Virus record (IMG/VR): IMGVR_UViG_2537562192_000017
Length of the DNA: 11,735 nucleotides
Source: a virus
Taxonomy: Duplodnaviria > Heunggongvirae > Uroviricota > Caudoviricetes
Direction: 5' to 3' (one strand)
This document shows, in pieces, positions 6,001-9,000 of this stretch; the first letter of the stretch is position 1, and each line of letters begins with the position of its first letter. The position numbers are program-made.

Positions 6001-9000
6001 GCTGGTTGCGTGAAAAGATGAAGACCCTGTCGCGACACTCAGAGTTGGCGAAGGCGTTCGCGTACGCACTTAACCAGTGGCCGGCACTGACGTACTATGC
6101 GAACGATGGCTGGGTGGAAATCGACAACAACATCGCTGAAAATGCCCTGCGGGCGGTCAGTCTGGGTCGTAAAACTTCCTGTTCTTCGGCTCTGACCATG
6201 GTGGTGAGCGGGGAGCGCTACTGTACAGCCTGATCGGGACGTGCAAACTGAATGACGTGGATCCAGAAAGCTACCTTCGCCATGTGCTTGGCGTCATAGC
6301 AGACTGGCCGGTCAACCGGGTCAGCGAACTGCTTCCGTGGCGCATAGCACTGCCAGCTGAATAACACATCCCCGTCAATACGGCCCTCGCTGTACGCTTA
6401 CGTTTCACCGGTATATTCATCCTGTGCTTCTTCATACGGCAGGTTTTCATAAAGGTTTTCAATTGCGCAGGTTATTACATCCAGTCCCGTCAGATTGCCG
6501 ACAACGTCCACTTCAAATGTTTCGCGGTACTCCCATTGCCCGAGTGTCAGACGAACCGTCTGTCTTGCCATGCGCCCGCATAATGTCATGTTCGGGTCGT
6601 AGTTCATGATTGCCGCAGTAGTGCTATTCATGTTCTGCCTCCGGTGTGTAAATAGCTTTGTCGTGTTTAAATTCACCGTTCCAGTTTTTCTTCATAGGGA
6701 GTTCACCGTTCATGTAAAACTGGTATAAACGGTGGCATCCTTTTTCCAGCAATACGGGGGTGAATTTCGTGAATGTTGCTTTCCCGTGTGGAGTGATCTG
6801 TACTGCTTCTTCGGTCAGGTATCTGTCACGGGCATAAGAGGCCGTGCGCCAGCGGGGTGTTTTCTCCGGATCGCGTTGTTCGTTGAATACCCATTTTCGG
6901 CCAGACAGCCACCACATTATCTGGCTGGTATTTACGCCGTTCAGCGCACGGCAGAACTGGGGAACAGTCATGCCTTTAGAGAAATGTTTTTCCAGACTGT
7001 CTACGGTTGCAGAGAGCGTTTTATTTTCCAGGGCCATAGCTTCAGCCCGTTCTTCGGCCTCAATAACCATCAACGCGAGTTCCTTGCGAGTGAGTACGCG
7101 CTGAACATCGATGTTTTCCCGCTGAGTGAAGTAGAACTCCACAAGGTCTTCGTGATAGTTCCACGCCTGATCCGTTTCCAGCAATTTTGCGTGGTTGGCT
7201 GCGCCGCGTTCGGTCCAGAGGATGAGGGATCGAACATTGCTGGCAATTTTCACAGAGTAGCTTTGAGATACTCTGTGCTTAAGTTCACGTAGTTCATCGC
7301 CTTCCAGCAAAAAATAATGCTTTCCAACAACGAATCGTTCTTCGTTTCGGGAATGATTCTGGCGAATACGGATTGGTGTTGCTCCATAACCTGCCGCCAG
7401 TTGTTCAGTGGTCACAACGCGTTGACCGCGATATTCGATAATTTGCAAATCACGGGCTGCCACCGGCACAAGTTCAGTTGATTTTTTCATCATTACACCT
7501 CACGAAAAGCTGATTAGTGGAACACTCTGGTTTCCGGTTCTGAGTTGTCAGTGGCTTCACTGATAAGCCCATCCAGAATCATGTGCATCGCTCTGTAACC
7601 TTCCATTGTGATGCCGGTTTTTTCGCCGTCGCCCAGAGCGCCGGTGAATGCTTTGTACATAAGAATGCTTTTGAGCAGCCCTGATTCCGCTCCGTAAGTT
7701 TCTATGAGTGCCCATTCCATATAGTTCTGCATAGCGAGACGTAATGGTTTCAGGTAGATTGTCATGCCACCGTTGTGGCCTCTGTACATGGTGCCCTTGT
7801 CTGTACCGCCATTCTCGTTAAGCACTTCGGTCCAGCCGTTTCTGGTGAGCTGTTCAGAGAAGAACATGGCGGTATAAAGCCAGCGCCAGTACATGATTGT
7901 CTTTTCCGGCGCGAGCTCACCTGTCATGCCTTTTTCTTCTGCTTCACTGATGCAACACACTATTTCCAGACCATGCCAGATCGGCTCGTCAAAACAGCCT
8001 TCATCGAGCATTTCCAGTGCTTTGTTGATATCAAGCAGTCCGTAAGGTGTGTGGATACCTTCAGCGGTAAGAAAAAATAACTGTTCAGTTGCAGTCATGG
8101 TTTGCTCTCTTCTTAAATGGTCTTTGCGCGACAAGCCGGCAATACTGATCAATCCAGGCGTTGTATTTTTCCATCCAGGCATCAAACTGTTTTCTGCGTG
8201 CAAGGATGCGCAACAGGCGATAAAAACAACGCCCGTGAGCTCTGTAGTATTCGGGCGTAATTTCTCCCGGATGAAAGACTTCTCCATATTCCGGATGCAT
8301 CAGGCGCTGGTCAGGCAGACGTTTTTCAAAACCTGAACTTTCGAATACCTTCGTTGTCATAAAATGAGCGAGATGTATGATGGCCGTTTTTCGCGTGAAG
8401 CATTTCTTAACTTGTCCGTGGCGGCAGACTCTGTAAACAGGGCCGCAATCGAGTTCGTATTTATGAAAAGCACGGTCGATTCCGGCATTATTTATTGCAC
8501 TGTATTCCGCATCACTGAAGAAAGGTGGAAATACGATGTATCCTTCCATTGTCAGCGCCAGAACGCGCGGATCGGTTTCTGTCAGCCATTCGTTTTCTGT
8601 GAATTCTTCAGAATTAATTTCAATGATTTCAGGTTCTTCTTTCATGGTTACTCCGTGTTCATCCGGTGTTAATTACTTTTATTCACTCTGAGCGCAGCCA
8701 GAAGATGTGGCTCAGCAATTCGTTTGTTGCGATATATCTGTGATACAGCCTGGCCTTTTCAGGTTGTAAAAATCCCCGACAATAAAGCTGTAAATTAATT
8801 ACTGTTCTTAAATAATGTTATTCGTTTTCAGTCCGGCACAGATGCTTTTCTGCTTTGTCTGCTGTACAGGATAATGAGCGGAAAAGACAATTCATCATGT
8901 TTAGCGCATCTGGTGAACCAATATCACCGCTGTCAATAATCACCTGTAACAAAGACAGGCTTTCTGTTATCTCGCAGTGGACATTATCGAGTACTTCAAC

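What the first reader, a model, noticed from the sequence alone, without database searches (positions are those of the whole stretch)
7514..8817. Overlapping 186-aa/193-aa gene pair of unknown function behind a 172-bp non-coding gap
Most genes in this operon are tightly coupled, but a 172-bp gap (8646-8817) precedes this pair, which overlaps by 14 nt. The 186-aa protein has an acidic N-terminus and a Cys/His cluster (CGPVYRVCRHGQVKKC...HLAHF) suggestive of metal binding. The 193-aa protein is Gly/Met/Tyr-rich with no recognisable motif. The layout fits an independently acquired two-gene accessory module (moron) of the type that often encodes defence or anti-defence functions.
Basis: partly seen in the sequence, partly recalled or inferred. 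Interest (0 to 1): 0.5.

Follow-up and report, generated by a model that had tools for sequence, protein, structure and literature searches.

The report
Swappable early prophage gene pair
These are two real but uncharacterised early genes of an E. coli prophage; they move between related phages as one block but have no promoter of their own, so the finding is fairly ordinary, though neither protein resembles any known fold.

Summary
Gene A (186 aa, 8085-8645, minus strand) and gene B (194 aa, not 193; 7514-8098) overlap by 14 nt and follow a 172-bp untranslated gap. They lie in the early-left operon of a lambdoid prophage inserted next to rcsB.

- The pair is a discrete mosaic block (about 7500-8750). 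Near-identical E. coli prophages carry a divergent allele (A 56-64%, B 47-48% identity) between 98-100% identical neighbours.
- It is not a moron. No promoter or terminator candidate lies in the gap, while a good candidate early-left promoter (PL) sits at 10418-10390.
- The gap looks like a recombination scar holding the relic 3' end of a small gene.
- Homologues occupy the same slot in prophages across Enterobacterales.
- The Cys/His cluster is not conserved (C67 and C74: 6% each).

New points:
- B's C-terminal two-thirds is a distant paralogue of the upstream 120-aa gene (9053-9415).
- A always travels with that family (20/20 genomes) but with B in only 6/20.

Pfam, NCBIfam, PADLOC, PDB and viral structure searches found nothing.

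Best guess, at low confidence: early lytic host-interaction proteins, with basic A working alongside acidic proteins of the 120-aa family, B included.

The parts
8085..8645 (-). Gene A, 186 aa. It has an acidic, low-confidence N-terminal extension (residues 1-50) and a basic core (pI 9.6). The predicted core is helix, three strands, helix, then a two-strand hairpin and a 44-residue Arg-rich helix. Member of phrog_1886.
7514..8098 (-). Gene B, 194 aa, acidic (pI 4.6). Member of phrog_1515. Residues about 64-190 are a distant paralogue of the 120-aa gene upstream. The confident AlphaFold2 model matches nothing in PDB or the viral structure library (BFVD).
8085..8098 (-). 14-nt overlap of the A stop codon and the B start codon, suggesting translational coupling. 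The geometry varies in relatives: -16, -10, 0, +3 or +13 nt, or a 650-1060 bp insert.
8751..8817 (-). Proximal 67 bp of the gap. This is the 3' flank of the 64-aa gene and is shared by prophages carrying either A-B allele, so it lies outside the exchanged block.
8646..8750 (-). Distal 105 bp of the gap, specific to this A-B allele; the other allele has only 19 nt here. It forms the left edge of the mosaic block.
8669..8758 (-). Probable relic of the 3' end of a phrog_6882-type small gene. In frame it reads ...IAEPHLLAALRVNKSN*, against ...DALRTNKGN* in the 66-aa paralogue. Its stop codon lies 23 nt before the A start codon.
   Evidence: tblastn E 0.012 in a 200-nt target; suggestive only
9053..9415 (-). 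120-aa gene (phrog_1737). It is a paralogue of the B C-terminal region and the most constant companion of A (20/20 genome loci).
10390..10418 (-). Candidate early-left promoter (PL): TTGACA, 17 nt, TAACCT. A palindrome at 10366-10399 overlaps it. This is the likely transcription start for the whole operon, including A and B.
   Evidence: consensus match only, no expression data

Best explanation
A and B are delayed-early genes of the early-left operon of a lambdoid prophage that has no recognisable recombination module.

Shown:
- They have no promoter or terminator candidate of their own, so they are most likely transcribed from the candidate PL at 10418-10390 when the prophage is induced or infects a cell.
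- B starts inside the end of A, which suggests translational coupling.
- The pair, with about 105 bp of leader, is exchanged among related prophages as one recombination block.
- The '172-bp gap' is probably the scar of such an exchange. It joins the 3' flank of the 64-aa gene to the decayed 3' end of another small gene.

Inferred:
- A is a small basic protein with a helix, three-strand, helix core and a long Arg-rich helix. It binds nucleic acid or an acidic partner.
- It works with proteins of the phrog_1737 fold, namely the 120-aa protein and its acidic, enlarged paralogue B.
- The set acts early in lytic growth on a host process (takeover or counter-defence), not as a lysogen-expressed defence gene.
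For: Operon position and conserved order. The order repressor, phrog_1737 gene, small genes, A, B, ORF6N antirepressor, xis, int holds in E. coli, Klebsiella, Enterobacter and phages attributed to Aeromonas and Elizabethkingia.

No internal promoter or terminator.
- The standard scan found no coding-strand site.
- A relaxed scan recovers PL at 9/12 matches but finds nothing at 9/12 or better on the minus strand across 6600-10400.
- There is no Rfam match and the gap's folding z-score is -0.35.

Mosaic block with breakpoints at about 8750 and about 7500.

The relic gene end in the gap.

Co-occurrence.
- A lies upstream of B in 80/80 IMG/VR loci that carry B, and is adjacent or overlapping in 55. 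This sample is biased towards one subfamily.
- A occurs with a phrog_1737 gene in 20/20 species-representative loci, and in 4 of them that gene sits directly downstream of A, where B sits here.

B and the 120-aa protein are paralogues: hhalign probability 89.9%, E 1.7e-6, against control comparisons at E 0.2-0.3.

Opposite charges: the A core carries +11 and B carries -15.

Purifying selection: dN/dS 0.27-0.37.

Published support.
- Co-transferred neighbouring genes in lambdoid phages tend to be functionally related (PMC9836094).
- Many lambdoid phages lack a recombination module in this operon (PMC12315714).
Against: - There are no expression data. Consensus scans are weak evidence, and the standard scan missed even the PL candidate.
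- B exists without A and without a phrog_1737 gene in phiP27 and Stx phages (25 of 36 phage records).
- A exists without B in 14/20 genomes.
- A 64-aa gene and a 275-aa gene can sit between A and B. An obligate A-B complex is therefore unlikely.
- Co-transfer may simply reflect physical proximity.
Confidence: 0.45

Rival explanations
1. A moron in the strict sense: an independently transcribed two-gene insertion, expressed from the prophage, that gives the lysogen a defence or superinfection-exclusion function.
For: - The pair is bracketed by recombination breakpoints.
- A 172-bp untranslated stretch precedes it.
- The alleles are very divergent (47-64% identity) between nearly identical flanks, as expected for genes in an arms race.
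Against: - No promoter or terminator candidates on the coding strand.
- The gap is better explained as a scar with a gene relic.
- The other allele has only an 87-bp gap, and Klebsiella-type phages have none.
- No PADLOC hit.
- The slot is occupied in all relatives, and the GC content is not distinctive.
Confidence: 0.12
2. An unrecognised DNA-transaction module occupying the usual place of the recombination genes in the early-left operon. It would act in recombination, replication switching or nuclease inhibition, with A as the DNA-binding component.
For: - The prophage has no recognisable recombinase or nuclease inhibitor, and A-B lies mid-operon where such modules normally sit (PMC12315714).
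- The A core is basic with a long helix.
- B is acidic, like some DNA mimics.
Against: - No similarity to any annealing protein, exonuclease or Gam/Abc-type inhibitor in PDB.
- A and B are not universal in phages lacking a recombination module. PMC12315714 reports no universally present unknown gene in such phages.
- B and A occur independently of each other.
Confidence: 0.2
3. A type II toxin-antitoxin pair: two small, overlapping genes, one basic and one acidic.
For: - The genes are overlapping and co-transcribed, with opposite charges.
Against: - No toxin or antitoxin family hit in Pfam, NCBIfam or PADLOC.
- No promoter of its own.
- Each gene is frequently found without the other, and other genes can be inserted between them. 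This does not fit an addictive pair.
Confidence: 0.05
4. Two functionally unrelated accessory genes that are neighbours only through shared ancestry of the operon and are co-transferred only because they are adjacent.
For: - Each occurs without the other.
- Profile comparison finds no relation between A and B.
- P0002 appears by eye to be an intragenic recombinant of A that still pairs with allele-2 B.
- Proximity alone can explain co-transfer (PMC9836094).
Against: - Start-stop overlap or near-abutment recurs in most loci.
- The partner of A is always a phrog_1737-fold protein, of which B is one.
- The two genes diverge together as alleles.
Confidence: 0.18

Closest known systems
PHROG families phrog_1886 (A) and phrog_1515 (B), both of unknown function
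   Same: Clear sequence membership: E 1.5e-42 and 5.2e-73. Same position in the early-left operon of temperate enterobacterial phages such as KPP5665-2, CharmingMan, Fels-1 and phiP27.
   Different: This A allele carries an extra acidic N-terminal segment of about 50 aa; the PHROG match starts at residue 50. The window's B is only 30-36% identical to most family members.
Accessory genes of the lambda and P22 early-left (PL) operon: gam, kil, cIII, ral, abc1/abc2, ea genes
   Same: Same operon and position between the immunity region and xis-int. Small, dispensable-looking, mosaic genes, presumably expressed early after induction.
   Different: No sequence or fold similarity to any of them. This prophage has no recognisable recombination module.
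Morons (independent transcription units inserted between phage genes, as defined for HK97-like and lambdoid phages; from my own knowledge)
   Same: A discrete mosaic unit with breakpoints on both sides and an untranslated stretch upstream.
   Different: No flanking promoter or terminator candidate. No distinctive base composition. The slot holds homologous alleles in relatives rather than being empty.
phrog_1737 family (the 120-aa protein at 9053-9415)
   Same: B residues about 64-190 align with the whole 120-aa protein (hhalign probability 89.9%, E 1.7e-6). Both are encoded near A.
   Different: B has an extra N-terminal domain of about 60 aa and an inserted hairpin region, and it is strongly acidic. 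The similarity cannot be seen with single-sequence searches.

Membership tests
phrog_1886 / phrog_1515 | Significant match to the family profile over most of its length | tested here: met
   A residues 50-179 match profile positions 4-133 of 135 at E 1.5e-42. B residues 1-194 match positions 12-203 of 203 at E 5.2e-73.
Moron | Own promoter upstream | tested here: not met
   No minus-strand site scoring 9/12 or better in the gap, while the PL candidate scores 9/12. This is a consensus scan only, so the result is not definitive.
Moron | Own terminator downstream | tested here: not met
   No minus-strand terminator-like site in 7400-9500. Only 20 nt separate B from the next gene.
Moron | Present in some genomes and absent, with the flanking genes abutting, in close relatives | tested here: not met
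   Close relatives carry a divergent allele in the same slot. More distant phages lack B or A but have other genes there.
Moron | Base composition distinct from neighbouring genes | tested here: not met
   GC is 0.45-0.50 across the pair, part of a gradual rise from 0.38-0.41 upstream to 0.49-0.52 downstream.
Moron | Expressed from the repressed prophage | not testable with these tools
   Needs RNA-seq or reporter fusions in a lysogen.
Cys/His metal-binding (zinc-finger-like) protein | A near-invariant set of four Cys/His ligands | tested here: not met
   C67 is kept in 6%, C74 in 6%, H91 in 9% and H94 in 45% of 101 sequences. The best alternative set, H76/C82/H137/C140, is complete in only 44%.
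Known anti-phage defence systems (PADLOC) | Match to a defence-protein profile | tested here: not met
   No hits for A or B at E up to 1.
Known anti-phage defence systems (PADLOC) | Location in defence islands | tested here: not met
   All 20 species-representative loci look like prophage early-left regions, with a repressor upstream and/or an integrase downstream in at least 17.
Type II toxin-antitoxin pair | Obligate co-occurrence of both genes | tested here: not met
   B occurs without A in 25/36 phage records, and A without B in 14/20 genomes.
Type II toxin-antitoxin pair | Match to a known toxin or antitoxin family | tested here: not met
   None found.
Nucleic-acid-binding folds (dsRBD, AP2 / integrase arm-binding domain, HicB-like) for A | Significant structural superposition | tested here: inconclusive
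phrog_1737 fold (for the C-terminal region of B) | Profile-profile similarity over the domain | tested here: met
   probability 89.9%, E 1.7e-6. The smaller alignments gave E 0.0057. Weak hmmsearch hits recur in 7 phages. Control comparisons gave E 0.2-0.3.

The most novel reading that the evidence does not exclude
A, B and the 120-aa phrog_1737 protein together form a previously unrecognised phage system. Its folds are not represented in PDB or BFVD. It is widespread in Enterobacterales prophages, and B also occurs in Stx-converting phages. In this reading, a basic adaptor (A) partners with rapidly diversifying acidic paralogues to neutralise a variable host target, such as a defence nuclease or sensor. 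That would make it a new anti-defence or host-takeover family.
Probability: 0.25. Interest if true: 0.55.

Novelty: new member of a known kind. Interest (0 to 1): 0.3.

Why it matters
As it stands, this is an ordinary example of lambdoid mosaicism: an early-operon gene block of unknown function, already catalogued as 'hypothetical'.

It would matter modestly if followed up.
- Both proteins give confident models with no known structural relative.
- The B family sits in the early region of Shiga-toxin phages.
- The steep divergence of the alleles between near-identical flanks is the pattern expected of proteins that engage variable host factors.

The A / phrog_1737 / B relationship gives a concrete three-protein hypothesis to test. 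The analysis also warns against reading every intergenic gap in a phage operon as a promoter, since this one is best explained as a recombination scar.

Tried and rejected
- **Family and sequence searches.** Pfam, NCBIfam and PADLOC scans of A and B found nothing. The faint precomputed PF17345 tags on a few B homologues were not reproduced.
- **PDB sequence searches.** Single sequences and profiles of A, B and the 120-aa family gave only chance hits.
- **A and B as paralogues.** Rejected by hhalign, E 0.2-0.3.
- **RNA element in the gap.** Rfam found nothing and folding was unremarkable.
- **Homology between the two ~170-bp gaps.** Only a short shared motif, GTCGGGRRTTYTYAC, lies 36-38 nt after each small gene. 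The pattern was derived from those same two sites, so its count of 2 is circular.
- **Repeat scan.** Nothing further.
- **Zinc site.** Rejected on conservation.
- **Lambda N-like arginine-rich motif in A with a boxB-like hairpin in the gap.** Considered by eye. The hairpin has only 3 bp and the motif lies inside a folded helix, so I did not pursue it.
- **Literature.** Searches by accession and PHROG id found no paper.
- **Single-sequence homology searches.** The word-indexed searches found very few relatives. A concatenated A+B profile recovered 240, but only B-family hits were listed.
- **Chi sites.** Two in the window, both outside the region, so uninformative.

Full report
**Setting**

The window is the left arm of a lambdoid prophage inserted beside rcsB in E. 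coli.
- The stretch 7400-9100 is 100% identical to strain 2012EL-2448.
- It is present in only 14 of 5426 complete E. coli genomes.

On the minus strand the gene order is:
- a CI-like S24 repressor (10443-11150);
- a helix-turn-helix (HTH) gene (9980-10372);
- a 63/84-aa gene;
- a 66-aa gene (9590-9790);
- a 174-bp gap;
- a 120-aa gene (9053-9415, phrog_1737);
- a 64-aa gene (8818-9012), which is a paralogue of the 66-aa gene; both belong to phrog_6882;
- the 172-bp gap;
- A (8085-8645) and B (7514-8098);
- an ORF6N/KilAC antirepressor-like gene (6624-7493);
- a DUF5406 gene split by an IS66-family element;
- further small genes, then xis and int.

**The observation**

The pair, the 14-nt overlap and the 172-bp gap are exactly as described, except that B is 194 aa.

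Both are genuine genes.
- A matches phrog_1886 at E 1.5e-42 and B matches phrog_1515 at E 5.2e-73.
- Both have homologues in many Enterobacterales.
- dN/dS is 0.27-0.37 between close alleles.

The acidic N-terminus of A is real: charge -11.5 over 50 residues. It is a lineage-specific, low-confidence extension, because most relatives start near residue 50.

**The gap**

The standard scan finds no promoter-like or terminator-like site on the coding strand in 7400-9500. That scan also missed the operon's own promoter, so I repeated it with relaxed criteria.
- The relaxed scan recovers a good PL candidate just after the repressor gene: TTGACA, 17 nt, TAACCT at 10418-10390. A palindrome overlaps it.
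- It finds nothing of equal score anywhere on the minus strand from 6600 to 10400.
- Rfam and folding are negative for the gap.

Comparison with related prophages explains the gap.
- The first 67 bp after the 64-aa gene (8751-8817) are shared by prophages that carry either A-B allele.
- The remaining 105 bp are specific to this allele; the other allele has only 19 nt there.
- In frame, 8669-8758 reads ...IAEPHLLAALRVNKSN*. This resembles the C-termini of the 66-aa (...DALRTNKGN*) and 64-aa (...AEKHLCRTENE*) paralogues. Its stop codon lies 23 nt before the A start codon.

The gap is therefore most simply a recombination joint that retains the decayed 3' end of a third small gene. This relic is suggestive rather than proven, because the match is short.

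**The pair as a mosaic block**
- Against L097, identity is 93-99% from the immunity region down to about 8750, falls to 48-78% through the distal gap, A and B, and then stays at 80-90%.
- In that prophage A is 56% and B 48% identical, whereas the flanking 64-aa and 120-aa genes are 98% identical.
- Against L101, the 64-aa gene, gap, A and B are 87-99% identical, while the immunity region is 35-70% identical and identity drops again at the B/ORF6N junction.
- Breakpoints thus bracket roughly 7500-8750.
- Co-transferred neighbours in lambdoid phages are often functionally related, though proximity alone can produce the same pattern (PMC9836094).

**Distribution**
- In the phage collection, A and B are adjacent in Klebsiella, Escherichia, 'Aeromonas' and 'Elizabethkingia' phages.
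- B occurs alone in phiP27 and 24 Stx or related phages.
- A occurs alone in Fels-1, LMessi, Fraca and the S107 group.
- In 80 IMG/VR loci selected through B, A is always upstream on the same strand. It is abutting or overlapping in 55, and separated by a 650-1060 bp insert in 25. This sample is biased towards one B subfamily.
- In an A-anchored sample of one genome per species (20 loci, from Enterobacter to Yersinia and Budvicia), B is present in only 6.
- In that same sample a phrog_1737-type gene is present in all 20, and in four it lies directly downstream of A.
- At least 17 of those 20 loci show a repressor upstream and/or an integrase downstream. They are prophage early regions, not defence islands.

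**Relationship of B to the 120-aa gene**
- The B profile gave weak but recurrent hits to the phrog_1737 protein in seven phages.
- hhalign gave E 0.0057 with small alignments.
- With enlarged alignments it gave probability 89.9% and E 1.7e-6. In the permissive alignment, B residues about 64-190 cover the whole 120-aa protein.
- Control comparisons (A against B, and A against phrog_1737) gave E 0.2-0.3.
- B is therefore an enlarged, acidic paralogue of the upstream gene.

**Structure and biochemistry**

B:
- The model has mean pLDDT 84 and pTM 0.79.
- Foldseek against BFVD gave nothing at E <= 0.001.

A:
- The core (residues about 55-165) models at pLDDT above 90. It is a helix, three strands and a helix, followed by a hairpin and a 44-residue Arg-rich helix.
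- The A core is basic (pI 9.6-10.6) and B is acidic (pI 4.6-4.9).

The proposed Cys/His metal site fails on conservation. C67 and C74 are kept in 6% of 101 sequences each. The best alternative set, H76/C82/H137/C140, is complete in only 44%.

The name '2-polyprenylphenol hydroxylase related flavodoxin oxidoreductase', given to B homologues in some records, has no domain support.

**Verdict**

This is a real, conserved, probably PL-driven early gene pair that is exchanged as a block.
- It is not a moron, it has no conserved metal cluster, and nothing ties it to defence.
- The most likely role, at low confidence, is an early lytic host-interaction function in which basic A works with phrog_1737-fold proteins, including B.
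- The prophage lacks a recognisable recombination module, as many lambdoid phages do (PMC12315714). An unrecognised DNA-transaction role is therefore the main rival.
- Interest is modest.

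Noticed in passing
window 9053-9415 (-) and 7514-8098 (-): The 120-aa phrog_1737 gene and the C-terminal two-thirds of B are distant paralogues (hhalign probability 89.9%, E 1.7e-6). The phrog_1737 family accompanies A in 20/20 species-representative loci.
   Followed up: yes
window 8818-9012 (-) and 9590-9790 (-); gaps 8646-8817 and 9416-9589: The 64-aa and 66-aa genes are paralogues (phrog_6882, 38% identity). Each is followed by an untranslated stretch of about 173 bp that carries a similar 15-mer (GTCGGGRRTTYTYAC) 36-38 nt after the stop codon. 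This hints at an old tandem duplication of a small gene plus its flank.
   Followed up: partly
window 8669-8758 (-): An in-frame relic of the 3' end of a third phrog_6882-type gene (...IAEPHLLAALRVNKSN*) lies inside the 'non-coding' gap.
   Followed up: partly
window 10366-10418 (-): Candidate early-left promoter (TTGACA, 17 nt, TAACCT) 25 nt after the repressor stop codon. A palindrome, CTCGTAACC...GGTTGCGAG, overlaps it and looks like an operator. The standard promoter scan missed it.
   Followed up: partly
window 4035 to about 6400 (+); 6398-6676 (-): An IS66-family element (ISEc8: tnpA, tnpB, transposase) is inserted into the DUF5406 gene of the prophage and splits it into two pseudogene fragments. 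The element's GC content is 0.57-0.62.
   Followed up: partly
L001 11693-12390 (NZ_CP027586): The RefSeq strain that matches 7400-9100 at 100% carries an extra IS1 next to the HTH gene. The window lacks it, so the window comes from a different isolate of the same prophage lineage.
   Followed up: no
L002, L007 and other Klebsiella phage records: B homologues are annotated '2-polyprenylphenol hydrolase/hydroxylase related flavodoxin oxidoreductase'. No Pfam domain supports this, so it looks like a propagated mis-annotation.
   Followed up: partly
L013 3957-4534 (phage phi467): The B homologue is split by a frameshift into a 45-aa ORF and a 142-aa ORF. This is either a pseudogene or a sequencing error.
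   Followed up: no
L008 (phage EKP1) and L009 (phage AsXd-1): Phages attributed to Elizabethkingia and Aeromonas carry an early-left operon laid out like the enterobacterial ones (repressor, phrog_1737 gene, A, B, then ORF6N in EKP1, int). The host assignments may deserve a check.
   Followed up: no
L007 2908-3926; L010 4393-5411; L003 5917-6744: A 275-aa gene, variously annotated 'serine protease', 'SPFH domain protein' or 'lipoprotein', moves around this region. With a 64-aa gene it lies between A and B in 25/80 IMG/VR loci. It lies after B in phiP27 and Stx phages, and after A in Fraca.
   Followed up: partly
P0002 compared with P0004 and window A: By eye, P0002 looks like an intragenic recombinant of A. 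Residues 1-100 match allele 2 and residues about 100-150 resemble the window allele, yet it pairs with allele-2 B.
   Followed up: no
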